A DNA stretch of 64,000 nucleotides, from positions 98,993 to 162,992 of IMG/VR virus record IMGVR_UViG_3300035520_000484; one strand, written 5' to 3'. Below the pieces are notes generated by a model that worked only from the letters and a program-made list of their open reading frames with translations, was not told the origin of the DNA and made no database searches. Both the position numbers and the translations under genes were made by a program. Positions 412 to 63,059 of the stretch are shown one piece after another. Source of the DNA: a virus. Lineage: Duplodnaviria; Heunggongvirae; Uroviricota; Caudoviricetes. How positions within the stretch are numbered: position 1 is the first letter of the stretch; each line of letters begins with the position of its first letter.

Positions 412-1358
412 TTTCAATTTGTCCAATTATTTCTAATTGGATTGGACTATATCTTTAATAGTCTTTCTAATAATTCTGTATTCTTTACAAAAAACATCAT
501 CAGATTTTTTTCTTGAAAATGAACTTAATACACTTGTTAGATTTAGTTCTTTTAACATAGTATAATCTCCATTTTCAGTAATTAAATTTCCATTAGGATC
601 ATAAATAATATATGAATATTTAGTTTTATTTTTTGACATAATTTTGCTTTGTTGCTTTTTTCTTTCATTATTATTTTTCCAATATTCTTTTAATTTATCA
701 GAATGGGTATCTCTTATACCTTCTTCCCATTCTTTTTTAAGTCTATTAGAAATTTTAATAGAAGTTTCTTTAGAACAAAAACATTTTCCCTGTGAATCAT
801 ATCTTAAATTATAACCTTTTTTTCGATCTAGAGAATTTAATTCAATCATCCAATATAGTTCTCTATCATATAAAAGTTTTTCTAAGATTTTAGGATCTTT
901 TTCGTCAAATTTTTCAACAATGTAATATTCAAAGTTATCTTCTCCGTATTTTTTGAAAGCATTTAATAAATGAACATTTTCATTATATTGTCTACTTTCA
1001 ATTCTAATATCTGTTAAATGTTGATGTAATCGTTTATAACAATTTTTTGATTTACCAACATAGATCTTTCCGTTTATAGAATTTTTAATTACATAAATTC
1101 CAGGAAAATTGCAATTTGATTTTTCGATTTTCATATTCAATATCTTTTTTACAAAGATATTAATTCTGAAATTCAAAACCAAATAATTGTTATATAATTA
1201 TTAGTAATAACTATTACCCTCCGTTTCCATCATAATTACATGATGTACTCTACTCAGTTCATACAAAAGTATGCTTTTCGATAGTCTCTGAACCTTCAAA
1301 ATCTATTACATAATAGATTAAGCTTGGCTGCTGATTGTCATACACTTAGTTTCTCAAC
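412..1358 (-). other. Putative group I intron interrupting the DNA polymerase gene. Contains a GIY-YIG homing endonuclease ORF.
   Basis: 176-nt non-coding stretch (1183-1358) plus the endonuclease ORF lie between the polymerase exon 1 stop and an ORF continuation that has no ATG. Two verified RNR introns in the same genome show the same architecture. Confidence 0.35.
433..1182 (-). CDS. GIY-YIG homing endonuclease. Terminates at TAG, then one codon, then TAA.
   Basis: N-terminal motif GIYVIKNSINGKIYVGKSKNCYKRLHQH is a canonical GIY-YIG module. About 249 aa, the typical endonuclease size. Confidence 0.8.
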   Translation of the reverse strand: MVLNFRINIFVKKILNMKIEKSNCNFPGIYVIKNSINGKIYVGKSKNCYKRLHQHLTDIRIESRQYNENVHLLNAFKKYGEDNFEYYIVEKFDEKDPKILEKLLYDRELYWMIELNSLDRKKGYNLRYDSQGKCFCSKETSIKISNRLKKEWEEGIRDTHSDKLKEYWKNNNERKKQQSKIMSKNKTKYSYIIYDPNGNLITENGDYTMLKELNLTSVLSSFSRKKSDDVFCKEYRIIRKTIKDIVQSN

Positions 1359-9563: not shown

Positions 9564-10361
9564 TTAATTACATTTAGAATAACCGTTATATTCTGCAACT
9601 TTACAGCACATCTCCTTAAAGTAATCATTTGAATAAGATTGTTTCATCATATTTATATCTTTGTGTACCCATTGCACATTTCCTTCAACATAACCAATAT
9701 CAGAATTAATTCTGTCCAAAGACCAATTTTGTTGAATAGCTGGTTTAGTTATATCTAATTCAAGAGATAATCCTGAAAGAGCACATTTATGATTTTGTTC
9801 TTCATAAAGTTTTTCAAGATATTCTGGAGTAATATTAAATTCTAATTGGCTAACTTTTTTACGCTTATTTACATTATTAATTATATGAGTGTAAAAACTA
9901 TTAATCATTCCATTAATACTAATTTCTCCATTTTCAGTTAAATAAGATTTATTACCACAGCTTTTACATTTAGTAGTGCTACCAGTTCGTAAAGCAGTTA
10001 ATGATTTCCAAGCAGTATTTCCACAACAACACTGACAAAGTTGATAAAGAGCACGATTACTGCCTACTTTTACTTGATCACTTATAATAGTCCATAATCC
10101 AAATTTTGTACCTACAGGATAAGTATTTCTGGTTTCTTGACGTCTTGATGCACTACGCATTTCAACACCGTGATCTTTTAAGTATTTATCAATGCTTGCA
10201 TGATTTACTCCAGTTAAATCTTCTATTTCTTTTGAAGTTTTATTTTCTTCTACATATAATTTAACCGCATCATAGGTATCTAATATTTCTTTTATTACTT
10301 TAGGAGATCTCCGAGTTCTTTTTACAGGTTGATTCAAATTTTCTTCTTTAACAGTGTCCAT
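9564..10361 (-). CDS. HNH endonuclease with an N-terminal Zn-finger/HTH region; free-standing beside the RNR gene.
   Basis: C-terminal HKCALSG...SLDRINSDIGYVEGNVQWVHKDINMMKQ is an HNH motif (His...Asn...His/Asn). A Cys cluster CQCCCGN...CKSCGN is also present. Confidence 0.6.
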   Translation of the reverse strand: MDTVKEENLNQPVKRTRRSPKVIKEILDTYDAVKLYVEENKTSKEIEDLTGVNHASIDKYLKDHGVEMRSASRRQETRNTYPVGTKFGLWTIISDQVKVGSNRALYQLCQCCCGNTAWKSLTALRTGSTTKCKSCGNKSYLTENGEISINGMINSFYTHIINNVNKRKKVSQLEFNITPEYLEKLYEEQNHKCALSGLSLELDITKPAIQQNWSLDRINSDIGYVEGNVQWVHKDINMMKQSYSNDYFKEMCCKVAEYNGYSKCN

Positions 10362-10446: not shown

Positions 10447-12024
10447 TTATTCACAACGAGTATATGAACAATTAGTACATGAAACACATCCTCCTTGATG
10501 AATTAACGTTGGTTCATGACAATTCGGGCATTCCACTGCTGTAGTAAACTGAACATTACGTTTTTCTTTAGATTCATCATATGAGAGAGCTTTCTTTGGA
10601 AGTATTTCAGGACTTTGATTTAAACTTGAAGTTTCTTCTTCGTGATTACATTTACATACAATATCCTGCATTTCAGCAGCCATACTCTTTAACGCTTCTC
10701 CTACTGCTACAGGACAACAAGATCCTTTTGAAGTATCTTTTTTAGTAGCACTACGAACAGCATATGAAGGACATACACCACAAGATTTAAGCTGATCAAG
10801 AATATTTTCAATTTTAATACCACCTCTTGCAGCAAGACTAATCATACGAGAAAGAGAAATCATAAAGTTATTACATCCTCCTGTACTACCTTTAGAAAGA
10901 TAACATTCTCGTAATTCACCATTAGAAGGATCAAAGTAGGCTGTACAATGTAAACTGCCGCAACCAGTAATCAAGGTTCGCTTAAGACCTATACATTCAT
11001 TACCAGCTTTGATAATTTCTCCTCTTTTTAGTTCATGAGGATTATCTAACTGTAATTTAGCATTATCAGTATTAAGACTAACTTCTTGAGATATTTCTAC
11101 TTCTGGTTTTTCTTTAGATTCTTTCTTAGAATCTGTAGTAAGAATACCTTGTCGTTGACAATTATCTCTCCAAATAGTAACACCCTTTAATCCCTGCTTC
11201 CAAGCTTCTACATAAATATCAAATACTTCTTGTATAGTAGTAGATTCTGGAAGATTAATAGTAGAACTAATTGATGCATCAATATACTTTTGTAAAGCTG
11301 CTTGTACTGCAATTCTCTCAAATGGATTAATATCTTGAGAAGCAACAAAATACTCTGGAAGTTCAGTATTGCCAGTAATTTTTTTGTACTGTTTAACAAT
11401 CTCTGTATCAACCTTATATACAGTTTCTTCTTGATTCAAAGATACTGTACGGCGATTAAATGAGAAGGCAAAGTTAGGTTCTACTCCCGTACTAGCTCCA
11501 ACCATTGTTGCAATAGATCCTGTAGGTGCACAAGTTAGAAGCTGAGAGTTAAATAAACCATACTTTTTAATCTTTTCAAGAAGAGTTTCATCTTTTACAA
11601 TATTTTTAATAAAGCTAGAATTAACTAGTGCTTTATTATTACACATCGGATAACTTCCATGTTCTTTAGCAAGCTTTAATGATTGTTCAATAGCTGCATA
11701 TGCGATAATGCTAAAAACGTCTTTAATTACAGATAGACTTCTTGATGTTCCATAGGTTATTCCCATTTTAATCAACATATCTCCGAGACCAAATGTTCCT
11801 AATCCAATCTGTCGCCATAGGCGTACAGAGTCTCGTTGTATTTGTAATGGATGTAAAGGTAATCCTTCTGTCAAAACTTTATTGAGAGCTTTTACAGCAG
11901 TATAAGTAGCTTCTGTAAGCTCCATTAAATCTATATAAGATTTATCGGAGAATGGATACTTAACAAATTCTGAGAGATTAAGACTGCCCAATAGGCAGGA
12001 ACCTCCTGCTGGGAGCGGCTCTTC
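10447..12024 (-). CDS. Ribonucleotide reductase, exon 3 (C-terminal part). NrdJ-like with a C-terminal CxxC...CxxC zinc ribbon. The ORF track starts at a TTG; the true exon begins at 12024.
   Basis: Exon starts EEPLPAGGSCLLGSLNLSEF, matching the RNR consensus ...(G)E.PL....CNLGSINL.. Later motif TCAPTGSIA matches APTGS. C-terminus CPNCHEPTLIHQGGCVSCTNC. Confidence 0.8.
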   Translation of the reverse strand, partial: EEPLPAGGSCLLGSLNLSEFVKYPFSDKSYIDLMELTEATYTAVKALNKVLTEGLPLHPLQIQRDSVRLWRQIGLGTFGLGDMLIKMGITYGTSRSLSVIKDVFSIIAYAAIEQSLKLAKEHGSYPMCNNKALVNSSFIKNIVKDETLLEKIKKYGLFNSQLLTCAPTGSIATMVGASTGVEPNFAFSFNRRTVSLNQEETVYKVDTEIVKQYKKITGNTELPEYFVASQDINPFERIAVQAALQKYIDASISSTINLPESTTIQEVFDIYVEAWKQGLKGVTIWRDNCQRQGILTTDSKKESKEKPEVEISQEVSLNTDNAKLQLDNPHELKRGEIIKAGNECIGLKRTLITGCGSLHCTAYFDPSNGELRECYLSKGSTGGCNNFMISLSRMISLAARGGIKIENILDQLKSCGVCPSYAVRSATKKDTSKGSCCPVAVGEALKSMAAEMQDIVCKCNHEEETSSLNQSPEILPKKALSYDESKEKRNVQFTTAVECPNCHEPTLIHQGGCVSCTNCSYTRCE

Positions 12025-13162
12025 CTAAAATGTTATCATAAGAGCTTTTTATCTCTTATTTCCGGGAATTTCTTCCATTATACAGATTTATTCATCTGCC
12101 GGATCGGCATATATTTTTATTAATTCTTTTAATTTTATAATTATATCTCTTTTTCCAGATACTCCTAAAACTTTTCCTACAGTCCTAGTATCTTTTACAC
12201 CAATAAATTCTGCTAGATCGTTTAAAAAATTAAGTCTATTCATTTTACAATTTAATACAAGTTCTTTATTATCATGTAACCATTTAAGAATAAGATTATA
12301 TCTCTCATCTTTAAGTTTTGCATAATTTTCCATGTTTACTTGTGTTGCTAACTTAGCTTTTTCAATTACTTCTTCATGTCTAGCTTTTTGAGAACATTCT
12401 TGAGAACAGTAAGTACGATGTTTTGCTTCACAAGGTTTAAGTTTAATAACCTTATGACATACAGGACATTCGAAATCAACAAAATTTTCTAAAGCACGTT
12501 GTTTTATAGTTTCTGTACCTTTTCGGAGACCTTCTCTCATTTTGGCAGCACATTCTTCATTTTGCCATTTTAATTTAGTAGTTTCTCCAATTTTTGCTTT
12601 AGTTTCATCAGTACATTTTCCTCCATTATTTCCACCTGCTTTTAAATTATATCCTTTTTCCTTGTTTTGAGAATCGTATTCTTTAATATACTTAATCTCT
12701 AATTCGTTAAGTATGTTTAAATCATCACATTCTTCTAATATTTCCCAAGTAAAAGAATCAAATCCATATTTTTTTAAAGCATTATGAAAATAATTATCAT
12801 AATATTTAGTCCTGTTACAATCTCTCTGATGTTGACTTTTTCTATGTTCTAAAGAATTAATAGTCTATCCAATATAGACTTTCCCATTGATTTTGTTGGT
12901 TACTTTGTAAATTAACATAATTATAAAAATTTTTAAATTAACATTGGGTACTCGTGGTAACATTATATTTATTCAGTTACTATGCTCTACAGTGATAATT
13001 CGCCTTTTCGTAATCGAATTATTTACCACGGTATTATCAATGCAAATATACATATTCCTTGTAAATTAACAAAATCCACCTACGTTAATTTTTATAAAAT
13101 ATGTATTTTTTGTTTAGACTTCACCGTTTTTACCCAATTTTTAACGTGAGCCGAAGATACCC
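12025..13162 (-). other. Group I-type intron 2 within the RNR gene; carries a GIY-YIG homing endonuclease.
   Basis: Upstream exon ends ...GVNPCA on a U (gct). The intron ends ...ttttag on a G. The downstream exon resumes in frame at EEPLP. The joined protein reproduces the NPC(G/A)E catalytic-loop region. Confidence 0.75.
12088..12918 (-). CDS. GIY-YIG homing endonuclease encoded in RNR intron 2. Has one in-frame TAG codon (plus-strand CTA at 12865-12867) read as Gln.
   Basis: MLIYKVTNKINGKVYIG(TAG)TINSLEHRKSQH...KYGFDSFTWEILEECDD...ELEIKYIKEY...GYNLKAGG is a full GIY-YIG module. The TAG sits at the usual Q/S position after YIG. C-terminal Zn finger CPVCHK...C..EC. Confidence 0.7.
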
Positions 13163-13498
13163 AGCACACGGATTGACTCCTGCATAGCTAAAGTTAGAAT
13201 CCTTGTCTAGCATGTTATAGTTAGTTATATTATCCCAATATAACACTCCAGGTTCAGCCATTTCCCAATTTCGTTTAGCCAGTAACATGAAAATATCGCG
13301 AGCATTAACAGTTTTCTTAATACATTCATGTTCTGTATTAAACGTAAGATCCCAAGGACGGTTATTAATCACTGCATCCATAAAGTTATTACTTACTCGA
13401 ACTGAGATATTAGCCTTAGTACAGATATTTAGGTCAGATTTAAGATTAATAAATTCCTCTAAATCAGGATGAGTACAATCAATAGAAAGCATTGTTGC
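13163..13498 (-). CDS. Ribonucleotide reductase, exon 2 (catalytic-cysteine region).
   Basis: ATMLSIDCTHPDLEEFINLK...NISVRVSNNFMDAV...MAEPGVLYWDNIT...GVNPCA matches the RNR consensus A.M..L...HPDI..FI..K / N.SV.V.D.FM.AV / ..PG..F.D..N / NPC. Confidence 0.8.
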
Positions 13499-14354
13499 CC
13501 TACTTATTAAATATATAAGTAGCAGACTATCTCTTCATAAGGAACTGTGCTTCCTTATGCCATGCGCTTCCACTATAAGAGTTTCACTTATAGTGTACCC
13601 TACTCGGTTATTCACTAATAGCTGTATCAGTTATCCTTTCGGTAGTCGTTACACTTTCATTTGTAAATTCAAAAATATATCCTTTTAATTTTCCCTTAGT
13701 AGGAGTATAAGGACTAGATTTTGCAAGCCAATGTTGTAAGGTAGTAGAATTCTTATATCCATAATATCTAGAGGCATCACTCATATTTGGAAATATGATA
13801 ATATTTCCATTTAATTCAGTGACTTTTACTCTTTTAATATTAGAATATGCACAATTATCAAATCCATGTTGAGTATTATAACTTATACTACACCACTCTA
13901 GATTTTCGACATTATTATTCTTTTTGTCTAAATCTTTATGATTAACTACATTACAACCTTCGATTTCAGGAAGATATTTTAAAGCAACTAATCTATGAAC
14001 TCTAAATGGTTGTCTATTACCATTTGAATCATAAACTAGTGATACATCGTAATATCCGTCTTTATCTTCTCTAAATTTTAAATATCGGCTTGTGTATGGG
14101 CTATATACTTTCCCATCTTTTGAAATTTCATAATGTTCTAAGACATATTTTTCTTTTTCTGTCATAATTTGTAATTTTTATTTTAAAGTTTTTAATTTTT
14201 CGACATTACAAATTTAAACATTATGATTTGAATTTTCAAATGCTTAGCACGGTATTTTATAAAAATTTATTTATAATTCACCGTTAGCAACTTTATGTTA
14301 AAGTTACACCCTATATTTATAGGTTCACATGGTTACGAGGCACATTTTTGGCTT
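13499..14354 (-). other. Group I-type intron 1 within the RNR gene; carries an HNH homing endonuclease.
   Basis: Exon 1 ends ...EGRRG on a U (ggt). The intron ends on a G (agg). Exon 2 resumes ATMLSID. Joining the two reconstructs the conserved GRRGA.M..L...HPD block. Confidence 0.75.
13608..14165 (-). CDS. HNH homing endonuclease encoded in RNR intron 1.
   Basis: HRLVALKYLPEIEGCNVVNHKDLDKKNNNVENLEWCSISYNTQH is an HNH motif with surrounding phage endonuclease features. Confidence 0.7.
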   Translation of the reverse strand: MTEKEKYVLEHYEISKDGKVYSPYTSRYLKFREDKDGYYDVSLVYDSNGNRQPFRVHRLVALKYLPEIEGCNVVNHKDLDKKNNNVENLEWCSISYNTQHGFDNCAYSNIKRVKVTELNGNIIIFPNMSDASRYYGYKNSTTLQHWLAKSSPYTPTKGKLKGYIFEFTNESVTTTERITDTAISE

Positions 14355-14804
14355 ACCTCGACGACCTTCTTGTCCAATTAACCCAGTTACATAACTAAAT
14401 AAGTCCATAAAACTGGTAACACCAGAAGTAGTCTTAGCTGCATTATTAACTTTAGATCCTTTTGGACGTAATTTACTTACATCAACCCCACAGCCTCCAC
14501 CATAACTAAAAGTACGAGCTAATTGAGAGGCACAATTAAAAATAGATTCAAGATTATCATCTGGACTAGGAAGTACATAACAATTTGAGTAAGTTACTCT
14601 TTTACCGTATTTCTCTAATCCTCTATTAGCTAGAATACGACCTCCAAATAAGAACTTCTTATCTATAATTAACTGTCTAACTTTTTTATCACCTCCACTA
14701 ACTCTATCTAACCATTGTTCAAATGATTCATTTTGGTATCTATATTTATTATTCCAAATATCTAATGAAAGTTGATTATCACCAAGCCAGTCTTTTTCGG
14801 TCAT
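14355..14804 (-). CDS. Ribonucleotide reductase, exon 1 (N-terminal part).
   Basis: KYGKRVTYSNCYV...TFSYGGGCGVDVSKLRPKGSKV..TSGVTSFMDLFS...QEGRRG matches the RNR GGG.G...S.LRP.GS and ..G.RRG blocks. The downstream KPKMCLVTM-stop belongs to the intron. Confidence 0.8.
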
Positions 14805-20862: not shown

Positions 20863-21384
20863 CTAACATAATTTTTTAAAATAAGGAAATAAAGTATTTT
20901 TAAATAAATGATAAACATCTTCAATTTCTTCTTTATCCAAAGTATAAACACGACCTATTGGACCCCAGTCTTTATTATTAGGAGAATCTAATAGTAAGCA
21001 AGGTATTCCTTTTAAATTAAGGTCTTTAAATACTTGTAAAGAATCATCAACATGAACATCAGCTCCAGATCGTTTAAGTTGAGAATATTTACTAAGACTT
21101 ACCCCAAATACTTGATATATAGGTGCTTTAGGTAAATTATTAACAGCTAATTGTTCTTTAATCCAATTTTTACTAATTAATCGAGAAGTACAATAGCAAT
21201 GGGGCATAAAATTAGGCATATTAATAAGAGGTTGAGTCATCCAAAACTCTTTATCCTCTCTTAATATGCCTCGCACATTTTTAGTAATCTCTAAATCAGA
21301 TTTAGGATTACCAAATTTTTTAATATAATGTTGATAAAAGTCAACAATTGTTCCGTCAAGGTCCAATGACACATTTAGGATCAT
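20863..21384 (-). CDS. HAD-superfamily phosphatase, 5'(3')-deoxyribonucleotidase-like.
   Basis: N-terminal LDLDGTIVDF is HAD motif I (DxDGT). Confidence 0.45.
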   Translation of the reverse strand: MILNVSLDLDGTIVDFYQHYIKKFGNPKSDLEITKNVRGILREDKEFWMTQPLINMPNFMPHCYCTSRLISKNWIKEQLAVNNLPKAPIYQVFGVSLSKYSQLKRSGADVHVDDSLQVFKDLNLKGIPCLLLDSPNNKDWGPIGRVYTLDKEEIEDVYHLFKNTLFPYFKKLC

Positions 21385-21819: not shown

Positions 21820-22377
21820 TTTTTTAGTTGCTTGTAAAAAATAATAAAGTAATTCTACTGGTATGATTGCTAAAGTTCCTTTACTTATAGAATTTTCTTC
21901 AGCAGTTTTTTTCCATATCATTATTAAATCTCTAGGATCTGAACAATTTTCTCTAATAGTATAATAATTAGGAAGGTTTTGAGTAGCTTTACATTGAATA
22001 GCGTAAGGAAGTTCATTATTAACATCAGCAATATCTATTTTATTATTATCTAATTTTTTGCTTTCAGCTGCAGAACGACATACTCCTGTATATCCAATTT
22101 CTTTAAGTTTATTTACTACTTCTGTTTCTAAAGCTCCTCCTTTATTTCTACTTTTTTTAGCTTGATAAGATCTAAAAGTAGTATCATTAATCCATCTACA
22201 ATGAATCTTATCTTTTTTATTTGCAGAACCATTTCGAGATTTATTACAACGAATCTTAATAGCAGCTTCAGATAATTCCGAAGCTAAAGATGCATCTTCT
22301 AAAGATACATATGTTTCTTTTCTACCATTAGGATAAGTTATTTCAACTGATGTGTCTAGATTTTTCTACTTAGCCAT
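21820..22377 (-). CDS. Hypothetical protein (possible PD-(D/E)XK nuclease) with an in-frame TAG at codon 4. Start overlaps the 3' end of the primase gene.
   Basis: Minus strand ATG GCT AAG TAG AAA AAT... gives MAK(TAG)KNLDTSVEITYPNGRKETYVSLEDASLASELSEAAIKIRC...DIADVNNELPYAIQCKAT... (185 codons, ends TGA). No alternative start codon downstream of the TAG. Confidence 0.45.
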
Positions 22378-23369
22378 AGTAAAAATTGTTTAATTAAATT
22401 AATTGTTTTAGTTTTATTATTTAATTTATAATAATCACTAATATCTTTAGCATTTAATTTTCTAGGAATCCAAGTATATATTAATTCAGGGTGTTTTTTC
22501 TTAATGCGATTCATGAAAGATATTCCAGTTAAATCATTATCAAATAATACAACAATATGCTTAAATCTCTTTTTAAGACTTTCTAAAACAGTTTCACTGA
22601 TAAATTGAGTTTCTGAATTAGGTGCACAAGCTGGAATCCCTAATGAGTATAAAACCATTGTGTCTTTCATAGATTTTGTTATTACCAATAAGTTACCTTT
22701 TTTAGGTAAATGTTCTATACCTTGAATTTTTTGGGTAGGCCAATTACCAATAAAACGATATTCTTTACGTTTAGGAAAATAACATCTCCACAATTCCTCT
22801 CCGTGATACTTATTTCCATAATATCCAAAAATAGGACAATGTTGCTGAGATGAGGCAATTACATTTCCATTTAAGAATACGTGTTTACATGAATATACAT
22901 TAAATTTTTTTAGAATTTCAGGAGTTATACCATATCTTGACCACCACTTTAATTCTAAAGATGTAAAATCTTGAATTTCAACTTGAATCTTAGAAAATTC
23001 TTTTTCTTCTACTTTTATATCTTTTGATATAATTTTACCTTTATTCCTAACTAAAGTATCATCTTTATAAATGTTAAAGTCATTAGCAATTATTCGTAAA
23101 GATTCGGAATATGTACAATGAAACAATTCACATACATATCCAAAACAATTTAAAGATTGTCCAGTAGCAAAATCCTTATAAATTAAAGTACCACGATTGT
23201 TTCTATATAAAGAACAAGTTGGGTTGTTATCACGCCGTAGTTTACTTCTGAAGAGTTTCTTAGACTTAAACTCATCACCTAAGTAAAAGCCAAAGATTTG
23301 CTCTTCAGAAATTTTAGATAAAATTAAATCCTTATTTAATTTGGGCTTACTTATTAAACTAAATTTCAT
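22356..23369 (-). CDS. Putative DNA primase (TOPRIM domain). Terminates at TAG, followed six codons later by TAA.
   Basis: C-terminal HIVVLFDNDLTGISFMNRIKKK is a TOPRIM DxD motif. Sits at the start of the replication module. Confidence 0.45.
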   Translation of the reverse strand: MKFSLISKPKLNKDLILSKISEEQIFGFYLGDEFKSKKLFRSKLRRDNNPTCSLYRNNRGTLIYKDFATGQSLNCFGYVCELFHCTYSESLRIIANDFNIYKDDTLVRNKGKIISKDIKVEEKEFSKIQVEIQDFTSLELKWWSRYGITPEILKKFNVYSCKHVFLNGNVIASSQQHCPIFGYYGNKYHGEELWRCYFPKRKEYRFIGNWPTQKIQGIEHLPKKGNLLVITKSMKDTMVLYSLGIPACAPNSETQFISETVLESLKKRFKHIVVLFDNDLTGISFMNRIKKKHPELIYTWIPRKLNAKDISDYYKLNNKTKTINLIKQFLLWLSRKI

Positions 23370-28846: not shown

Positions 28847-31800
28847 TGCTTAAAACATAAATTAGAGCAGACCAATTATCTACTCCTAATATTATTAATT
28901 TATGACAATTTAGAACAATGTCACAAATTATCTTTAACATTGTTCTTCCAAAGTAACCCCTAAATACTTAGCTACCTTCTTAATTTGATCCATTCGTTCT
29001 TCCCAACTTTCAATATGATACATAACCTCATTTTCAAGTCGGAATAATACCTTATTGCGAAGAACTGTAAGTTGGTCTGTTGTAAGTTCAGAATATTTCT
29101 TAGGTTTCAAAGTTACCATTGCACGAAGCTCATTATAATTAAGTCCAGAAGGCTTAACAATAAGACGTACAGAAGGTTTAATTCCCAAACGTTCTTTTAC
29201 AACTTCAAGTTTACTACGAGTCTTACCCTCTTTATCCTTTTCATCAAATTCCTTAATTTCAGAAGGAGTTAGATAGATACCCATATTAAGAATAAAACTA
29301 AAAGTAATATGCTTTGTGTCAATACTACCAAGTTGGTCTAGACATCCATCCAATACATTTTCAATAGAGATGCGTTCAAATTCTCGAGGAAGCCCACCAG
29401 TACAAGCAGCAATAGAAATATTCTTAAGTTCCTTAGAAGGAAATTCTTCTTTATGAGCATTCATATATGTACGAATATCCTGTACATAAAGATGACGAGG
29501 ATAAGGTTTTGCGTCTGCACAAATTGCTCCTGATTCTAATTTACGAAGGAATAGTTCAGTATTACATTTACTACGTTGATCTTTAATAATATCAAGTAGA
29601 ACATATCTACCAGGATTTAGCCTATCATTACTATAAAGCATAGAATAACAATGATTATAAAATCTATTAAGTTGTTCAGGCGTGGCATCTACAAGTCGTA
29701 GTTCATCTTGTGAACCATCAGATTTACGTGCAAATTTCCATACAAAAGATTTTACATCATTGCTTTTTGCATTAATAGCTTCAGTAAGCTTTTCTTTCAT
29801 CATTGTCATAACTTATATTTTTCATAATTATAAAAATTTTAATCTACATTACATACTTTTGGTCTGTTTCTTCTGGCTTTTTAATAAACTTATTAAATTG
29901 TACTCCATCATATTGATAAGGAACCATTTTCTCGCCATCAAACCATTTATCTATTCCTGCTAAAATCTCTTTATAATCTAAATAACCTATTTCTCCAATT
30001 TCTAGATTTCTATGTTCCCAATTTGGATATCTTGTACACATGATATATTTAGAATAGCTAATAGCTTCCTTTTCTAAACATTGAAATACATATGTAGTAT
30101 ATCCTCCTAAACTAGTTTCTTTTACTAGAAGTTTTGCAAGTACGGTCATTGTACAAAATACATCCATATTTAGCCATATCACAACGACATTTTTCAATAC
30201 CCTCAAAACATGGATATTTTGCACATGATTTACAAGACCTTTCTGGATATTTTAGTTTTACTCCATCCTCATCTCTAATTACTTTACTCATTTTAACAAT
30301 AAAAATACTAACAGTCCAACACTGACAGTTAATCCACCTACTTGCCAGTATTTTAACGTATTACTTTTACTTGATAATTGTTGATTAAGATTTTCTATCT
30401 TATCAAGATATTCTTGATTTAATACTTTATATTCACCAAGTTGTACTTTTCTCAAAGAATCAACTTGAACTAACTGATTATTTACTTGAATATAGTTATT
30501 AAGTTGTTCATTAAGTAAATTATTCTCTGTTAGTAATTTTTTATGTTCTACAAAAATGAGATTAGCATATTTAATATCAGAAACTGTTACTGATACTGTC
30601 GAGTCGTTCTCTATTGGCTGTGATATATTCGAGGAAAAAGCTATAATCCTCGTTAACATCATTACTAATAATATGCTTAAAATCCTCTTCATATTGTTTA
30701 TTATTACTATCAATTTTCTTATAAACAGTATCTATTCTTTCAACTAAACTATCTCGGACAATATAAATACTGTCTATAGTTTGATCAGTTGTATCATTAA
30801 TATTAGTTTGTTTATAAGAAGATTTATATAAGAAATATGCCTGAACAATAAATAGAATACAAAGTATAGCTATAATTATATAATACTTTTTCATCTTTTC
30901 TTTTTTAGTAACTCAAATTCAGGTAAATTATTTTCTTTTATAAAACTTTTAGGTGCCCCTAATAAAGTAATAAAGCGGAATAAGCTAAAATTCTTAAACC
31001 GCTTTATTACTTTACATTCTTTCACATTAAGTAATTTTCCCGATGTATAATATCTACATACAATAGTATTTACTCGATTAGGTTCTACTCTTTCAATACT
31101 TACTTCATATAGAAATTTAGGAGTCTGCTCAATTTGAAGATCTTGGTATCTATACGTTATAGGTTTTACCATTATAACAGTATTTAGATACAAGTGACTT
31201 CACACCAGCTTTAGTTTTAATTGTATAATTTTCTAGAACATCATTTACCTTTGTGTTCAAAACATTCTTAGAGTATGTACTATGAGGAAACTTATTATTG
31301 TTTACTAGATAAACAATTAATTTAGCTTCATAAGTAGCTCTAGATTCAGGAATAGAATGAAAATGTCCATCACGTTCCTTATAACGTAGCTTTTCATTAC
31401 GTAGGATTCTTTTTTCATTCTTAGTCTTACTCCAAACTGAAGGATCACGAGGTGCTAATACTCCATATCGAATCAAACCATGTTGAAGCATTACCTTATC
31501 ATCATGAACATTAATCCAACGATTTTCTTTCTTTTCCATAATTAAATTTTTGATTTTTTAATAGACTTGAATTTATGAAGAACTTCATACATTTTAAAGA
31601 AGCTATTCAGTATTCTAGTAATTTTTATATTATGATGAATATTATATGTTTCATTCCAATCACCTGTTTTATAAATCCATCGAATCTGATCAGATGTTAC
31701 ATTTGGTAATGTATACTGATAATATTCTAGGAAGTGACCAGAACAATTTATAGTTCCAATATCGGCTATATGAAGATAATAATGATTAGCTGTATTTAAT

Positions 31801-49300: not shown

Positions 49301-50812
49301 AGGGTTTTATAATGCTAAAATTGCAACAAATGCAAATGCTATGTATAAAGCAAAGCATATCTTAGCAGATTTAACTTTCAGTTCTTGATTATCACCTACT
49401 AAATCTTCGATGATAGAATCAATGACGGAATGTATTGTACTTACTATTAAACCAAGAAATAGTAAGACAATACACACCTTCATTATATAGAATATTACCA
49501 CAGCCATAATAATGTGAAGAACATCACTCCTGCCAATATAGCAGGAGCAATGTAATATACATTACGAGATTTCCAATGTTTCATTTCAGTTGAGAATTTA
49601 CATAATCTGCATACGCTTTAAGAAATTCATCAATTCCTAGATAATATGCAACACCATACTTCTTAGCACGTTGTACAAAACATTTCCATGTTAAGTACTC
49701 GCCGATAATCGCTTCCTTGTTTTCAGGACAAGCGAAGTAACGGGAAAAGTTACAGTGCAACTGATCCCAGAGAGATGAGTGAATACCAAAGGCTTCACAT
49801 AAACCTTCATATTCTCTATGTAGTATTTCTTTATTCATAATTAATTTGGGTTTGTGTTTTACACCTAAAACTCTCATGCACATCGGCAAAGTTAGTAATA
49901 TCATGAATACTTTATCACTAACATGAGAGAAACTGGTGCCCTCAACATCTTGGGAAGTTATTGAGTTTTTTAATTTGCTCGTCTTTCCGAGCTGCTAACT
50001 ATCACATTGTATCATTAATACAGGAAAACCTATTCACATACGGTTTATTACTAAGGAATGTGGTACCCCAACCTGTTTTAAACACTAATGACCCCAATAC
50101 GCAGAAATAGTATAGCCAGTTCTTACTACTGCGAGAGTGGTATTGAGACCTTAGATTGATTTAACTTGGATTTCAAAAATATACCAATCATCTCCACCTT
50201 TATGAAAAGCTATATGTTCTTTAGCTTCTTCAAGAGTATTGTAAATACGAACGAGGTTGTCATTGTGGCATACCATATATCCAGATTTGAGTTCTGATGT
50301 TTTCATTGTTTTGTTGTTTTTTGGGTTATACTTCTGTTTCGTCGCAATTTTCAGCGACTCATCAGGTGTCTAATGACACGACAGAACTTAACTACTTTCA
50401 CAAGCAATTAAGTGTATAATTATTCCAAATCATGACCTCCTTAATAAAGGAGGTTTCGTCCTAGTCTCATCAGATGATATTTTAAGGTCTCCTAGGCTGA
50501 CCATAGAAATTTTCTATAATAAGAAAATTTTTAACTTATACGAATAAGTGAATAAATGTGCATACCTATATAGTCCTCGAATGACTGAGGAATTTTATAG
50601 AATGTACATTTGGGAATTAAAGGTGGGTGGTGGGTATAGACCCCCTTAATCGAAGATCCAGCCTATCACCAACCACCTTTTACCAACAATACGAAGCAAC
50701 CAATACCCAACTTTGCCTAACCAGCTATCAGGCAATACTTGAGTATGGTAAAGATTCCCATCATCATCACGAAGAAGGGAATCTTTAATCATAGTTGCTC
50801 TACAACACCGCA

Positions 50813-52185: not shown

Positions 52186-52887
52186 TTAGATTAATTCATA
52201 ATCTGAATAGGTAGACGGGTAGAACGTTAATCCCTTTGTGTCGGTGTCGTACTTTGTGCTTAGACAAGAGTGCGTTACCACCTTGATAGTCCTACACTCG
52301 CTGTAGAGCTTTTCAAACAATTTGTCAAGCTCGAATTGCTTAACAAATTCGTTTTTTCCGTTGATGCATTCTGCTGCAAGTTCGCGTACTTTGGCAACAA
52401 AACTGCCTTCTAACTGGGTAGTCTTGCTTTCGCTGAGCCATATGCGCTTTGTAACAAGTGATTTAAGGCTCATTGAATGTATGCTCCCGTTGGCACGTTG
52501 CCAATGTATGGCAATGTATTCGTGCCCTTTGTAGGAGTCATGGCGTTCGTTTGACGGCTTTTCAACGATTGTAAGTATTTCACCGTCGTTTAAACCTTGA
52601 TTACCGCTAAAAGCGTTGGCGCGAAGATTAGTATCGCGGTCGTTTGCGGCGTTGGTTACAGTTGCACTTTCGGCAACATTAGCCGTTTTTGTGGGTTCGG
52701 CTTTAACCCTGTTGTTTCTGGAATTTCCCATAAAGCAAAAAGATTTGGAATAATGCCTAAAATCCGTAGGCGCGGTATCGGAAATAAGCGGAGCCGATGC
52801 GCAACTACACCCAACAGGGTACAGTCGATAGACTGTATCACTCTTGCCTTGGCTGAGTTTACCTTTAAGACCCCAGGGGGGTCGCAA
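52186..52887 (-). CDS. Hypothetical protein (GC-rich island). The true start may be the internal Met (MGNSRNN...).
   Basis: 233-aa ORF with GC-rich codons. Confidence 0.4.
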   Translation of the reverse strand: MRPPWGLKGKLSQGKSDTVYRLYPVGCSCASAPLISDTAPTDFRHYSKSFCFMGNSRNNRVKAEPTKTANVAESATVTNAANDRDTNLRANAFSGNQGLNDGEILTIVEKPSNERHDSYKGHEYIAIHWQRANGSIHSMSLKSLVTKRIWLSESKTTQLEGSFVAKVRELAAECINGKNEFVKQFELDKLFEKLYSECRTIKVVTHSCLSTKYDTDTKGLTFYPSTYSDYELI

Positions 52888-53049
52888 AAGGTACCTGTAC
52901 CCTCCCCCTCCTAACTCACAAAATTTTTTTCATCTAGAAAATTTTTCAATTTGAAATTGATTTCCAATTACTATGGGGAGGGGGTTAATTATATTAGATA
53001 GGAATTTACTATAACTCCTTGAAAATCAGACACTTATAAAGATTTTTAT

Positions 53050-53115
53050 TTTCTACAGCGCAATAATATTTTCTGTAGGACAATAATATTTTTTGTAGAG
53101 CAATACTATTTTGCT
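53050..53115 (+). repeat. Three tandem roughly 22-bp iterons upstream of the RepL-like gene (putative replication origin).
   Basis: ttctacagcgcaataatatttt / ctgtaggacaataatatttttt / gtagagcaatactattttgc. Followed by an AT-rich 12-bp inverted repeat (aaatattttattt...aaataaaatatt). Confidence 0.6.
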
Positions 53116-53130
53116 CCAGAAATATTTTAT

Positions 53131-53161
53131 TTTGAATATTGGAAATAAAATATTATATTTG
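53131..53161 (+). promoter_or_regulatory. Bacteroidota-type promoter (TTTG at -33, TATATTTG at -7) for the RepL-like gene.
   Basis: TTTGaatattggaaataaaatatTATATTTG with 19-nt spacing, about 20 nt upstream of ATG 53181. Confidence 0.5.
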
Positions 53162-53180
53162 ATAAAAATTAATAAATACT

Positions 53181-53618
53181 ATGTATCAGCAAACTAATAC
53201 TCGTGAAATTGTAGATTGTGAAACAGGTGAAGTTAAAATAGTTGAGACTTCTAAAGTATTCACTGCAAAAGTAAGTTCAGATTCCTTTTATATGACATTT
53301 GTAGATTATCTAAGTCCTATCTTTCAATTGAAATCGGATGCTGCTAAAACTTTATTAGTATGGTTATGCAAACACGCTGACTTTAATACTGGAGTTGTAT
53401 CTATTTCTCCTGCCGATAGAAAACAGATATGCATAGAATTGAATATTACTAATTCAACTATCAGTAACAACTTAAAAAAGCTGGTAGAATTAAAACTCAT
53501 TTCCGGAAATGGAGGAAGATATTTAATTAATCCCCAAGTCTTCTGGAAGGGGGATCTTAAAGAAAGAACTAAACTACTTAAAGATAAAGAGATTCAAATA
53601 ACATTCTCTATAGATTAA
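53181..53618 (+). CDS. repL: RepL-like plasmid/phage replication initiation protein.
   Basis: Architecture and motifs resemble firmicute RepL: VDCETGEVKIVE..., central LLVWLCKHADFNTGVVSIS, wHTH ICIELNITNSTISNNLKKLVELKLISG, and the ending GGRYLINPQVFWKGD. Iterons lie immediately upstream. Confidence 0.6.
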   Translation: MYQQTNTREIVDCETGEVKIVETSKVFTAKVSSDSFYMTFVDYLSPIFQLKSDAAKTLLVWLCKHADFNTGVVSISPADRKQICIELNITNSTISNNLKKLVELKLISGNGGRYLINPQVFWKGDLKERTKLLKDKEIQITFSID

Positions 53619-53699
53619 TAACACTTTTTAACACATATCTTATTGCATATTCAACTTAGAGATAGTATATTTGCAATGTAATTAAAAATTAAATTTAAA

Positions 53700-54089
53700 A
53701 TGAATATTGAAAGACTTTTTGAACTTGCGCTAAAAAATCCTGAACATATAGAAATTGAATATTCTAATGTAAATGGTAAAGAGAAACTAATAGTAAATGG
53801 TGAAGATGTGACTGAAGGTGAAGTATTCGATGATACTAAAACTAAAGAACTTGTAAAAACATATAAAGATAATATTGAAGAACTTGATGATGATACTTTT
53901 GTAGAAGCAGTTGAAAAAATGGATGAACACATGAATATGTATGATTTTGACCAACTTCTTAATAAAGAATCATATACCTTTTATGAAGATGTTCAAATTA
54001 CAGAAATGATTGATGTTGCTAATAGTATTATTAAGCGAGTTATTTCTGATAAAATAAATGATCTTTTTAACCTTAGAGCCAGATTCTAA
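53700..54089 (+). CDS. Acidic hypothetical protein.
   Basis: Intact 129-aa ORF in the plus-strand module. Confidence 0.4.
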   Translation: MNIERLFELALKNPEHIEIEYSNVNGKEKLIVNGEDVTEGEVFDDTKTKELVKTYKDNIEELDDDTFVEAVEKMDEHMNMYDFDQLLNKESYTFYEDVQITEMIDVANSIIKRVISDKINDLFNLRARF

Positions 54090-54117
54090 ACATAGTGGGA
54101 ATCTTTCCCACTAATAC

Positions 54118-54191
54118 TGCCCAATAGTATAAAGGTTTAATTACGACGCACTCTAAATGCGAAAATAACAGTTCGAGTCTGTTTTGGGCGA
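54118..54191 (+). tRNA. Amber suppressor tRNA (anticodon CUA), reading UAG.
   Basis: Acceptor TGCCCAA / TTGGGCG. D-arm GTA-TAAAGGTTTAAT-TAC. Anticodon stem ACGCA / TGCGA with loop CTCTAAA (C32 U33 C34 U35 A36 A37 A38). T-arm AACAG-TTCGAGT-CTGTT. Discriminator A. Preceded by the hairpin AGTGGGA-atct-TTCCCACT. Confidence 0.8.
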
Positions 54192-54193
54192 CT

Positions 54194-54475
54194 ATGAACA
54201 TATCTTTTATTTATAATAGAAAACTTTATCAACCTAAGAATCCAGAAAAGAAATTAAAGCAATTAGGAATTACTTGGGATGATGTAAAAATTATTAATAA
54301 CAAATCTAATGAAATTAAAGAAGAATATGAAGATCCAAACAGATTATACTATTTTATAAATCCGAAAACTGGATGGTCTATAACTTCTATAAATCCAGTA
54401 TGTAAATATGATGATTATGAACAATGTACTAAAGAAACTTTAGAAACTTACTGGTCTCAAAACAGGAAAGTTTGA
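54194..54475 (+). CDS. Hypothetical protein.
   Basis: Intact 93-aa ORF immediately after the suppressor tRNA. Confidence 0.35.
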   Translation: MNISFIYNRKLYQPKNPEKKLKQLGITWDDVKIINNKSNEIKEEYEDPNRLYYFINPKTGWSITSINPVCKYDDYEQCTKETLETYWSQNRKV

Positions 54476-54690: not shown

Positions 54691-55449
54691 TTAATAATGT
54701 TTAGCAGGTACTGGAGCACCTTGATATTGAGTAAACTAAAATCTTGAAGGACCATATGAAAGATTACCAGTGTCTGATAAAGGAGCTAAAGTAGCAGCTG
54801 CCGCATCAGAAGCTCTTTCATCAATACTCTTACTTAAACTACTAGCTTGAGAAGTAGCGTAGCTAAAAGGTGCAGTAGGAAATCCTGCATATCTCTAATA
54901 AGCTCCAAATGTAGGACTAGTTGAATATCCGTAATGTCCTGAAAGACTAGGAGTTTGAATAGTTCTATATGAACTAAGACTAGGTGTAGTTATTTCAGGA
55001 AGTGTTGAATTATCAAAAGCAGGTTCAGAAACATCTGAAGTTGTTACTTCATTAGGAGTAGATGATTTAACAGTAGATGACGTAACAGATTTACTAGTAG
55101 AGATACGCTATCTAGGCTTTAATCTAGTATTAGCAGTAACATCATGAGTTTTTAAATATGTGTCATTTGCAATTTTATTATCTAGTTCTTCATCTGCTGC
55201 TGTATATGTATAATCATCAAACTATTCATCACCTTTAATAACATCTCCTGCTTTAGGAGTTCCTTTAAATAATTTAGTACTTTTAGGAGTTACCCATTCA
55301 TCAGGAACTTCAATTACTTGTCCTATTTTTAATTTAACACTAGGTGTATGGTTAAGCTCTACTAATTTATTGTATTGCCCCCCCCTACCTGTTAATGCTT
55401 TGGCAATACCCCAATAGGTATCGCCTTTTTTAATTATGTACTTTGCCAT
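54691..55449 (-). CDS. LysM-domain protein with a Ser/Thr-rich C-terminal region. Four in-frame TAG codons.
   Basis: N-terminal AKYIIKKGDTYWGIAKAL...YNKLVELN...LKIGQVIEVP is a LysM domain. Reading continues through TAG at 55222 to TAA at 54691. Confidence 0.6.
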
Positions 55450-55562
55450 TTTGTTTTAATTTATTTTAATTTATTTAATTTATTTTACCACCATATTTCT
55501 TCATGTGTATAAAAGGACATAGCCTAATTGTTAATCCTCTTATTTTATTTGTTCTTAAAGTT

Positions 55563-55935
55563 TCAATAGCCTAAAGTATATCTTATATTAGGTATTCTTT
55601 CGGTTATTGGTTCAATGTTAAAATAATCCACAATAGAAGTTCCGTTCTCAGGAGATTCAAATATCATATGAGACGCATCTCTACCATATGCATGAGGCAC
55701 CTTAAGTTTTTCAAGATAGCTATTAGTATTAAATAAAGACACGGAGTTTAAATTTTTAAACATGCCGTCATTCCCTGTATGCATGCCATTAGCATTTATT
55801 GTAATATTTGACGAAAATCTAGGAAATCTCTAACTCCACCATGTTTCTATAGGGCCTTTAGGATTTATGGTCTTGGGAGTATACAAAGCGGTTTTGTTTC
55901 CATACTTCTTAGACCATATTGGATTAAATACAACA
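55563..55935 (-). CDS. Hypothetical late protein (one in-frame TAG). Start overlaps the upstream stop (ATGA).
   Basis: Open with TAG as sense: MNVGNPDVVFNPIWSKKYGNKTALYTPK...W(TAG)RFPRF...MHTGNDGMFKNLNS.... Ends TGA. Confidence 0.5.
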
Positions 55936-59274: not shown

Positions 59275-59279
59275 GCTAT

Positions 59280-62230: not shown

Positions 62231-62247
62231 TTTCTTTATAAATTCAA

Positions 62248-63053: not shown

Positions 63054-63059
63054 AGTTTT

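What the first reader, a model, noticed from the sequence alone, without database searches (positions are those of the whole stretch)
12088..12918. Intron-encoded GIY-YIG homing endonuclease contains an in-frame TAG exactly at the conserved YIG-(Q/S) position.
Reading through TAG gives MLIYKVTNKINGKVYIG(TAG)TINSLEHRKSQH..., a canonical GIY-YIG module. Without read-through the ORF track sees only the C-terminal 150 aa (12088-12540). So a selfish element in the standard-code early region is itself recoded. Its expression would depend on the suppressor tRNA, which may restrict endonuclease activity to late infection.
Basis: seen in the sequence. Interest (0 to 1): 0.6.

Follow-up and report, generated by a model that had tools for sequence, protein, structure and literature searches.

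The report
Amber-recoded intron homing endonuclease gene
A selfish DNA-cutting enzyme gene sits inside a self-splicing intron of a phage's ribonucleotide reductase gene, and it can only be made in full when the phage's own suppressor tRNA reads a TAG stop codon as glutamine; this is real, but the same arrangement has already been described in other recoded phages.

Summary
On the minus strand, 12918-12088 is a 276-codon GIY-YIG endonuclease ORF with one in-frame TAG at codon 18 (12867-12865), the family's invariant Gln in Y-I-G-Q-T. Only the read-through protein passes Pfam GIY-YIG.

It is not a pseudogene. Six distinct relatives (70-94% nt identity) all keep TAG-18 and an intact ORF. dN/dS is 0.05 downstream of the TAG, and upstream there are 8 synonymous and 0 nonsynonymous changes.

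The window has a tRNA-CUA (54118-54192) and TAG-rich genes. All other non-TAG-rich genes use TAG only as a stop.

The ORF lies in a real group I intron (13162-12025). Eight helices are 99% paired and 30 of 47 pairs are compensatory. An intron-less allele exists in Bacteroides phage BS-TP1. The ORF's last ~13 codons supply the ribozyme core strands P8', J8/7 and P7'.

The concept is published: Borges et al. reported a preferentially recoded group I intron endonuclease in an early gene of TGA-recoded Agate phages and proposed delayed expression. I also found about 77 distinct GIY-YIG ORFs in IMG/VR with TAG at this Gln. The position is not specially enriched.

Verdict: a new member of a known kind. 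Late timing is inferred, not shown.

The parts
14355..14804 (-). Ribonucleotide reductase (class II-like, Ribonuc_red_lgC + TSCPD) exon 1
   Evidence: ORF. The junction GRRG|A.MLSIDC is inferred from the uninterrupted homolog in L002 and the DNA. The spliced protein gives one continuous Pfam match, 1-522/523. Boundary is approximate, within a few nt.
13499..14354 (-). First intervening sequence (intron 1), carrying an HNH_3 endonuclease ORF (14165-13608) with no in-frame TAG
   Evidence: Pfam HNH_3 39.4 bits. No TAG. Absent from the L002 homolog. An S-like element AAGAGATAGTCTG lies downstream of the ORF stop. Its structure was not analysed.
13163..13498 (-). Reductase exon 2, ending ...GVNPCA. 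Its last 7 nt (13169-13163, GTGTGCT) form the exon strand of P1
   Evidence: P1 pairs 93.7% with an invariant U.G at the splice site and 2 compensatory pairs.
12025..13162 (-). Group I intron 2 (1138 nt) hosting the GIY-YIG ORF in the P8 loop. Helices: IGS 13152-13146; P3 13137-13132/12949-12944; P4 13127-13122/13033-13028; P6 13022-13015/13002-12995; P7 12985-12981/12111-12107; P7.1 12980-12976/12961-12957; P9.1 12076-12065; P9.2 12058-12039. It ends in G at 12025.
   Evidence: Alignment A2 of 9 ORF-deleted introns: 99.1% of cells paired against 30-43% for slid controls, and 30/47 pairs compensatory. Coordinates. All nine introns end in G. The same insertion site NPC[A/G]|E[E/Q]PLP is used in all relatives. 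The intron-less allele in BS-TP1 reads NPCAEEPLP. Rfam RF00028 does not detect it.
12088..12918 (-). GIY-YIG homing endonuclease ORF, 276 codons plus TAA: N-terminal catalytic domain, a Cys4 zinc-finger-like linker (C151, C154, C171, C175) and a C-terminal DNA-binding region
   Evidence: Aligns to the I-TevI catalytic domain 1MK0/1LN0. Family-invariant residues Y4, Y15, G17, Q18, R26, H30, E74, N91. dN/dS 0.05-0.17 against L001.
12865..12867 (-). In-frame TAG, codon 18, read as Gln (the Q of Y-I-G-Q-T)
   Evidence: TAG is at the same codon in L001-L004, L262, L085 and L109. Standard-code homologs have CAA/CAG.
12107..12111 (-). 3' strand of P7 (TATGC), the guanosine-binding core helix, lying inside the ORF (codons Y270-A271). 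The probable P8 3' strand (AATTAATA) and J8/7 lie just upstream, also inside the ORF.
   Evidence: Compensatory GCATA/TATGC <-> GCGTA/TACGC in L103 and L006. P8, which is less certain because the sequence is AT-rich.
12083..12098 (-). P9-like hairpin CAGAT-GAATAA-ATCTG, with the endonuclease stop codon (12090-12088) in its loop
   Evidence: The relatives have a hairpin of different sequence (GTCTG-AATTRA-CAGAC) at the same place. It was not included in the pair count.
10447..12024 (-). Reductase exon 3, starting EEPLPAGGSCLLGSLNL; no in-frame TAG
54118..54192 (+). Phage-encoded amber suppressor tRNA (anticodon CUA), needed to translate the endonuclease past codon 18
   Evidence: ARAGORN, Rfam tRNA 52.8 bits, cloverleaf fold. 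It has U1 in a weak 1:72 pair and A73, like the window's tRNA-Gln(UUG). It lies in a small plus-strand cluster behind a RepL-like wHTH gene.

Best explanation
The ORF at 12918-12088 is a functional GIY-YIG homing endonuclease gene in the P8 loop of a mobile group I intron. The intron interrupts the phage's class II-type ribonucleotide reductase gene at the active-site motif NPCA|EEPLP. Codon 18 is TAG and is decoded as the invariant catalytic-motif glutamine by the phage's own tRNA-CUA. Shown: the ORF evolves as one protein across the TAG, and the phage uses TAG as Gln in its TAG-rich genes. Consequence (inferred): while suppressor activity is low, ribosomes stop after 17 codons and no nuclease is made. 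The ribosomes also never reach the ORF's last ~13 codons, which double as ribozyme core strands P8', J8/7 and P7', so the reductase pre-mRNA can fold and splice. Once suppression is active, full-length endonuclease is made and can cut intron-less alleles in co-infecting phages. Whether the TAG is kept for this gating or merely tolerated, because a selfish gene need not be expressed early, is not resolved. My estimates are about 0.85 that translation is suppressor-dependent, about 0.5 that this delays expression in practice, and about 0.3 that the gate is selected to protect splicing. The confidence given below refers to the core claim: a functional, suppressor-dependent, intron-encoded endonuclease.
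For: The TAG is in frame at the invariant Gln. GIY-YIG is recognised only with read-through, and the catalytic residues align with I-TevI. Six distinct relatives keep TAG-18 and an open frame. Against L001, Sd=8 and Nd=0 upstream, and dN/dS is 0.051 for codons 19-126 and 0.165 for codons 127-276. A tRNA-CUA is present. TAG makes up 40-55% of Gln codons in the TAG-rich genes, yet it is never internal in about 80 other genes, 7 of which end in TAG. The host reductase exons have 0 TAG here and in L002-L004 and L115. The intron structure has strong covariation, and P7' lies inside the ORF. The spliced reductase is intact, and an intron-less allele exists. The same family carries in-frame TGA at W58/W118/W213 in TGA-recoded phages. 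About 77 distinct GIY-YIG ORFs carry TAG at this Gln.
Against: Nothing in the sequence shows when the tRNA-CUA is expressed, and 'early' and 'late' are inferred from gene content only; most TAG-rich proteins have no annotation. Conservation of TAG-18 is not statistically distinguishable from codon inertia: the other conserved Gln codons are equally static, and 39% of conserved-residue columns keep a single codon. Across GIY-YIG genes the motif Gln is TAG about as often (~0.3) as other Gln codons (0.37), and TAG is not significantly enriched near N-termini. Standard-code relatives with the same ORF/P7' overlap manage without any recoded codon (L006, L103, L017). The other endonuclease genes in the window have no TAG.
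Confidence: 0.8

Rival explanations
1. The TAG is just a synonymous Gln codon with no timing consequence. The suppressor is active early enough, or suppression is efficient enough, that the endonuclease is made whenever its mRNA is present. The TAG arose by a C->T change from CAG under AT pressure and drifts neutrally.
For: The motif position is not enriched for TAG relative to other Gln codons. Conservation of TAG-18 is within codon inertia. The window is 30% GC. The tRNA-CUA sits in a small separate plus-strand cluster with a DNA-binding protein, which could be an early unit.
Against: About 80 non-TAG-rich genes with several hundred CAA/CAG codons have no internal TAG, and 7 of them use TAG as their stop. 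That pattern implies TAG is not freely readable when those genes are expressed. Endonuclease genes carry more TAG than their neighbours in 59 of 71 loci (with an ascertainment caveat).
Confidence: 0.2
2. The TAG is a real nonsense mutation, and the endonuclease gene is a decaying remnant of a fixed intron (the late stage of the homing cycle).
For: Endonuclease genes in fixed introns are expected to decay. Some family members are clearly broken (L018-L020 and L116/L117 have frameshifts and multiple stops). L002 has a second TAG at the near-invariant Trp213.
Against: Six diverged sequences have no other stop or frameshift. Strong purifying selection acts on both sides of the TAG. All catalytic residues are retained. 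The phage demonstrably reads TAG as sense and encodes a tRNA-CUA. P(open frame by chance) is about 2e-10.
Confidence: 0.04
3. The product that matters is the C-terminal 150-aa DNA-binding part, started at the invariant Met127 (ATG at 12540). It would act without the nuclease domain, for example as a repressor or site-protecting factor, when TAG is not suppressed.
For: M127 is invariant in the family, and it is the first possible in-frame start after the TAG. I-TevI is known, from my own knowledge, to double as a DNA-binding autorepressor.
Against: Codons 1-17 and 19-126 are under purifying selection, so the N-terminal domain is translated. There is no evidence for an internal ribosome-binding site. 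M127 invariance is equally explained by protein function.
Confidence: 0.03

Closest known systems
Recoded group I intron endonuclease of TGA-recoded Agate phages (Borges et al., bioRxiv 10.1101/2021.08.26.457843; published in Nat Microbiol 2022 to my knowledge)
   Same: A homing endonuclease inside a self-splicing intron in an early, standard-code gene of a stop-codon-recoded gut phage carries in-frame recoded stops. The authors propose that this prevents endonuclease production until late in infection.
   Different: There the codon is TGA (Trp) and the result is statistical enrichment across a gene family. Here it is a single TAG (Gln) on the invariant YIG-Q residue, in a phage lineage with no close relative among annotated phage genomes. 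The overlap of the ORF with the ribozyme core was not discussed in the passages I read.
I-TevI in the td group I intron of phage T4
   Same: A GIY-YIG catalytic domain with the same catalytic residues. It is an intron-encoded ORF in a nucleotide-metabolism gene, and its 3' end contributes nucleotides to P7 of the ribozyme. Premature translation impairs splicing, so translation is delayed to late infection (citing Gibb & Edgell 2010).
   Different: I-TevI sits in the P6 loop and is held back by an RNA hairpin that hides its ribosome-binding site, plus late promoters. Here the ORF sits in the P8 loop and the candidate brake is a stop codon that needs a suppressor tRNA. Sequence similarity is weak (E=0.004), and I-TevI has Ser at the position equivalent to Q18.
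TAG-to-Gln recoding of late genes in crAss-like, Lak and other gut phages (Yutin et al. 2020/21; Borges et al.)
   Same: Low-GC genome, phage tRNA-CUA, TAG-rich putative structural/lysis genes, and TAG-free replication and nucleotide-metabolism genes.
   Different: In this case the recoded gene is a selfish element embedded in the TAG-free block, not a structural or lysis gene. TAG is still used as a true stop by 7 genes in the window.

Membership tests
GIY-YIG endonuclease (Pfam PF01541) | Profile match above the curated threshold | tested here: met
   34.4 bits against a cut-off of 22.6, residues 2-86, only when TAG is read as Gln. The post-TAG fragment gives no hit.
GIY-YIG endonuclease (Pfam PF01541) | Catalytic residues: Tyr of GIY, Tyr of YIG, Arg, His, Glu, Asn | tested here: met
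   Y4, Y15, R26, H30, E74 and N91 are invariant in the 50-sequence alignment and align with the I-TevI catalytic domain, query residues 3-92 to chain residues 5-91 of 1MK0/1LN0; their equivalence to I-TevI Y6, Y17, R27, H31, E75 and N90 is my reading of that alignment.
GIY-YIG endonuclease (Pfam PF01541) | Site-specific DNA cleavage | not testable with these tools
   Needs the expressed Q18 protein and an intron-less NPCA|EEPLP substrate such as the BS-TP1 allele.
Group I self-splicing intron | P1 formed by the exon end and an internal guide sequence, with U.G at the 5' splice site and a terminal G | tested here: met
   U.G in 9/9, two compensatory P1 pairs, and all nine introns end in G.
Group I self-splicing intron | Conserved core P3-P4-P6-P7 with a P3/P7 pseudoknot, supported by covariation | tested here: met
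   47 pairs, 99.1% paired, 30 with compensatory changes, slid controls 30-43%. R-like GTAGAGCATAG and S-like AAAAUAUAUGCC elements are present.
Group I self-splicing intron | Match to Rfam Intron_gpI (RF00028) | tested here: not met
   No hit at the gathering score or at E<=10, nor in the relatives. The 831-nt ORF splits the core and the model did find a different intron in L004, so this looks like a limit of the model rather than evidence against the structure.
Group I self-splicing intron | Precise excision restores the host reading frame; autocatalytic splicing | tested here: inconclusive
   In silico excision gives an intact reductase domain, 1-522/523, identical at the junction to an intron-less allele. 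Self-splicing itself is not testable here.
Mobile (homing) intron | Same insertion site across hosts, with presence/absence polymorphism | tested here: met
   The site NPC[A/G]|E[E/Q]PLP is used in all 10 loci whose upstream junction could be read. The site is uninterrupted in Bacteroides phage BS-TP1.
Stop-codon-recoded phage (TAG->Gln, 'code 15'-like) | In-frame TAG in conserved genes at Gln positions | tested here: met
   TAG falls on the invariant Gln18 here and in about 77 distinct GIY-YIG ORFs. L004's TAG177 falls on a family Gln. The window has 15-17 TAGs per TAG-rich gene.
Stop-codon-recoded phage (TAG->Gln, 'code 15'-like) | Phage-encoded suppressor tRNA with anticodon CUA | tested here: met
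   54118-54192. Charging with Gln is inferred from homology at TAG positions and from the literature, not shown.
Stop-codon-recoded phage (TAG->Gln, 'code 15'-like) | Temporal switch: suppression active only late | not testable with these tools
   Only indirect evidence: TAG is absent from the interior of about 80 genes and terminates 7 of them.

The most novel reading that the evidence does not exclude
The amber codon is a selected 'genetic-code gate' that does for this intron what the ribosome-binding-site hairpin does for I-TevI. The endonuclease ORF supplies the P8', J8/7 and P7' strands of the ribozyme. Stopping ribosomes at codon 18 until the suppressor tRNA appears would keep them off the catalytic core, so the essential reductase mRNA can splice early. 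The code switch would then release the nuclease. Stop-codon recoding would thereby be a general way for mobile introns and recoded phages to coexist.
Probability: 0.3. Interest if true: 0.55.

Novelty: new member of a known kind. Interest (0 to 1): 0.3.

Why it matters
It gives a clean, sequence-level example of a mobile-intron endonuclease whose synthesis is tied to the phage's genetic-code switch, now for TAG/Gln as well as the published TGA/Trp case. It shows the pattern is widespread, with dozens of GIY-YIG genes carrying TAG on the invariant Gln. For annotation, standard-code gene callers truncate these genes to a C-terminal fragment and miss the nuclease domain, while database proteins called under code 15 hide the TAG behind a 'Q'. 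For mechanism, the overlap of the ORF with the ribozyme core provides a testable link between code switching and splicing.

Tried and rejected
- **Rfam group I model.** It found nothing for this intron at the gathering score, at E<=10, or in the relatives. I replaced it with a manual structure and pair counting.
- **Is TAG-18 specifically selected?** No support. The other conserved Gln codons are just as static. The second-gene test gives p(TAG at motif) of about 0.29 against 0.37 elsewhere. The N-terminal TAG share is 44% against about 35-37% further along, which is not convincing.
- **Placing the phage.** There is no DNA relative among annotated phages. A TAG-rich 661-aa protein has no tblastn hit. 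An exonuclease-like protein finds only an uncultured gut phage and Cellulophaga phages. So the lineage is unnamed, and the host is probably Bacteroidota.
- **Annotating the TAG-rich genes as 'late'.** PHROGs recognises only a LysM/endolysin-like N-terminus in 54691-55449, so 'late' remains an inference.
- **A regulatory RNA or code-change module next to the tRNA-CUA.** Nothing was found beyond a RepL-like wHTH gene.
- **Database 'Q18'.** The proteins checked at the DNA level (P0004, P0005) had been called with TAG=Gln, so their Q18 is not independent evidence; I went to the DNA instead.
- **Not used.** Structure prediction and fold search would not have changed the verdict.

Full report
**1. 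The observation**

On the minus strand an ATG at 12918 opens a frame that runs to a TAA at 12090-12088. It has 276 codons and one internal stop, a TAG at codon 18 (12867-12865). The translation is MLIYKVTNKINGKVYIG-TAG-TINSLEHRKSQH.... Under the standard code the ORF list shows only 12088-12540, 150 aa from Met127. No ATG, GTG or TTG lies in frame between codons 19 and 126, so no downstream start could yield the catalytic domain. With TAG read as Gln the protein matches Pfam GIY-YIG (34.4 bits, cut-off 22.6, residues 2-86). The post-TAG part alone matches nothing. Given the window's composition, an open frame of 258 codons after the TAG has a chance probability of about 2e-10.

**2. Is the TAG translated?**

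A protein search found 358 relatives, and nearly all read Y-[IV]-G-Q-[ST] at this position. In a 50-sequence alignment Q18 is invariant, along with Y4, Y15, G17, R26, H30, E74 and N91. The protein aligns with the I-TevI catalytic domain over residues 3-92, and these invariant residues match I-TevI's catalytic set (1MK0/1LN0).

There is a trap here. At least some database proteins had been called with TAG=Gln, so their 'Q' can itself be a TAG; this was true of both proteins I checked. I therefore went to the DNA.
- Six distinct sequences of the closest clade all carry TAG at codon 18: window, L001, L002 (=L269), L003, L004 and L262, at 70-94% nucleotide identity. So do the more distant L085 (51% aa identity) and L109 (41%).
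- Standard-code members carry CAA (38 loci) or CAG (5).
- Against L001, codons 1-17 show 8 synonymous and 0 nonsynonymous differences. dN/dS is 0.051 for codons 19-126 and 0.165 for codons 127-276. Both sides of the TAG therefore evolve as one protein.
- L004 has a second TAG at codon 177, also a family Gln.

A pseudogene or an assembly error is excluded for practical purposes.

**3. The code of this phage**

The window is 30% GC and encodes a tRNA with anticodon CUA at 54118-54192.
- Genes at 36613-38577 and 54691-63932 are full of in-frame TAG. There are up to 15-17 per gene, and TAG makes up 40-55% of their Gln codons.
- The remaining ~80 ORFs carry several hundred CAA/CAG codons but no internal TAG. 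Their TAGs lie at the extreme 3' end or before the true start.
- Among those genes, stop use is TAA 54, TGA 20 and TAG 7. Each TAG is followed 2-27 codons later by an in-frame TAA or TGA.

The endonuclease is thus the only gene in the TAG-as-stop part of the window with a genuine internal TAG. The other endonuclease genes have none: HNH at 14165-13608, HNH-like at 10361-9564, and HNH at 40286-39306. The host reductase exons have no TAG here or in L002-L004 and L115, whereas the embedded endonucleases have 1-6.

The labels 'early' and 'late' are inferences from gene content. PHROGs recognises only a LysM/endolysin-like N-terminus among the TAG-rich proteins.

**4. Is it intron-encoded?**

Rfam's group I model finds nothing, but the evidence for an intron is strong.
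- The flanking ORFs are pieces of a ribonucleotide reductase. Joining ...GVNPCA (ending at 13163) to EEPLPAGGSC... (starting at 12024), and removing a second insert at about 14354-13499, gives one continuous Ribonuc_red_lgC match (profile 1-522/523, 339 bits) plus TSCPD.
- Every family member whose flanks could be read is inserted at the same site, NPC[A/G]|E[E/Q]PLP.
- Bacteroides phage BS-TP1 has the uninterrupted allele ...GVNPCAEEPLPAGGSC....
- I aligned nine ORF-deleted introns and wrote out P1, P3, P4, P6, P7, P7.1, P9.1 and P9.2. Of 423 cells, 99.1% are paired, against 30-43% when the partners are slid. 30 of 47 pairs show compensatory changes. The U.G at the 5' splice site is invariant. 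All nine introns end in G.
- A 90-nt core segment (12950-13039) is about 80% identical to sequences beside endonuclease genes in unrelated phages.

**5. An anatomical point that bears on mechanism**

The 3' strand of P7 (TATGC, 12111-12107) lies inside the ORF, at codons Y270-A271. It shows a compensatory change: GCATA/TATGC becomes GCGTA/TACGC in L103 and L006. A probable P8 closes the ORF, with TGTTAATT just after P3' pairing to AATTAATA about 6 nt before P7'. Its covariation is clear in L115, L007 and L017, but the AT-rich sequence makes it less secure. The stop codon sits in the loop of the next hairpin (12098-12083).

So the last ~13 codons double as P8', J8/7, P7' and the 5' strand of P9. 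A ribosome finishing this ORF must unwind the catalytic core. This is the situation documented for I-TevI in the T4 td intron, where premature translation impairs splicing and translation is delayed to late infection.

**6. How general is it, and is the position special?**

In a group of TGA-recoded gut phages (L007 type, about 25 loci) the same family carries in-frame TGA at all three conserved Trp residues, W58, W118 and W213. There the reductase itself also has some TGA-Trp codons.

A scan of IMG/VR for N-x-K-[VI]-Y-[IV]-G-TAG-[ST] returned 109 hits. Almost all are intact GIY-YIG ORFs of many subfamilies, 77 of them distinct and at least 150 codons long.
- In these ORFs, 37% of the other Gln codons are TAG.
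- They exceed their neighbours' TAG share in 59 of 71 loci, and the neighbours average 17%. The loci were selected for a TAG in the endonuclease, so this comparison is not unbiased.
- The motif position itself is not favoured. From contig segments with two GIY-YIG genes (1 TAG/TAG, 5 TAG/CAR), p(TAG at motif) is about 0.29.
- Within the clade, TAG-18 is no more conserved than the CAA codons at other Gln positions, and 39% of conserved-residue columns keep a single codon.

The TAG's location on the catalytic-motif Gln is therefore most simply explained by that residue always being Gln.

**7. Comparison with what is known**

Borges et al. reported that in TGA-recoded Agate phages a group I intron endonuclease inserted in an early gene is one of three families that preferentially use the recoded codon. 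They proposed that the in-frame stops prevent endonuclease production until late. Yutin et al. describe introns and alternative coding in crAss-like phages but do not link the two.

What is added here:
- the TAG/Gln counterpart, in a lineage with no annotated relatives;
- direct evolutionary evidence for translation across the stop;
- evidence that the pattern is common among GIY-YIG genes;
- the ORF/ribozyme-core overlap, which suggests why a translational brake could matter.

**8. Verdict**

Shown:
- a recoded, intact, intron-encoded GIY-YIG gene;
- dependence on TAG read-through for any catalytic domain;
- a tRNA-CUA in the same genome;
- a genuine mobile group I intron.

Inferred:
- Gln charging of the suppressor;
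- late timing;
- protection of splicing.

Noticed in passing
window 50331-50503 (- strand): Two adjacent hammerhead ribozymes: RAGATH-1 hammerhead (50429-50503, 76.7 bits) and a type III hammerhead (50331-50387, 49.8 bits), both above Rfam gathering scores, about 3.6 kb from the suppressor tRNA.
   Followed up: no
window ~13499-14354 (- strand): A second intervening sequence in the same reductase gene carries an HNH_3 endonuclease ORF (14165-13608) with no in-frame TAG. Its S-like element (AAGAGATAGTCTG) lies downstream of the ORF stop, so this ORF may not overlap the core. The homolog in L002 lacks this insert.
   Followed up: partly
window 433-1134, 20863-21384, 22356-23369, 29844-30167, 31150-31539, 34857-35147, 41321-41587 (- strand): Seven genes in the TAG-free part of the genome end in TAG, each with an in-frame TAA/TGA 2-27 codons later. 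TAG therefore has two meanings in one genome, and these proteins would be slightly extended once suppression is on.
   Followed up: partly
window 36613-38577 and 60045-62030 (- strand): Two heavily TAG-recoded proteins (654 and 661 aa; 15 and 10 TAGs) share a similar N-terminal region (...TPNS.NQLEK.DA...ADERVH.QF.QNSW..F.GTQA.GAAAAG...). One of them sits alone among TAG-free genes. Neither has a PHROG match, and a tblastn search of the 661-aa protein found nothing.
   Followed up: partly
L007-L011, L087-L102, L110 (about 50% identical endonucleases on 66-222 kb human-gut contigs): In TGA-recoded phages the same endonuclease family has in-frame TGA at all three conserved Trp residues (W58, W118, W213). 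In L007 the host reductase also has TGA at three Trp positions in its first part but none in exon 3.
   Followed up: partly
L002 / L269, endonuclease codon 213: A second in-frame TAG falls on the near-invariant Trp213 (TGG->TAG). Read as Gln, this would be a W->Q change at a conserved site, which may be an early sign of decay in that copy.
   Followed up: no
window 12918-12088 compared with L002-L004 and L007: The window and L001 endonucleases look mosaic. Residues ~29-105 (QHQRDCNRTKYYDNYFHNAL...NNGGKC) resemble the L007/P0038-type proteins more than their own clade, while residues 1-28 and 106-276 match the clade. This inflates dN/dS for codons 19-126 between subclades (0.45-0.50).
   Followed up: no
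L004 11368-11454: A different group I intron (Rfam Intron_gpI, 36.1 bits, E=1.3e-5) splits a dUTPase gene next to an HNH_3 ORF in a relative of this phage.
   Followed up: no
window 52753-54475 (+ strand): The suppressor tRNA lies in a small plus-strand cluster between the two minus-strand blocks, downstream of a RepL-like winged-helix gene (53181-53618) and an unknown ORF. No release factor, synthetase or ribozyme was detected beside it.
   Followed up: partly
window 9564-10361 and 39306-40286 (- strand): Two further HNH-type endonuclease genes (the second matches PHROG HNH families, E=2e-45), both free of TAG. The window carries at least four endonuclease genes.
   Followed up: partly
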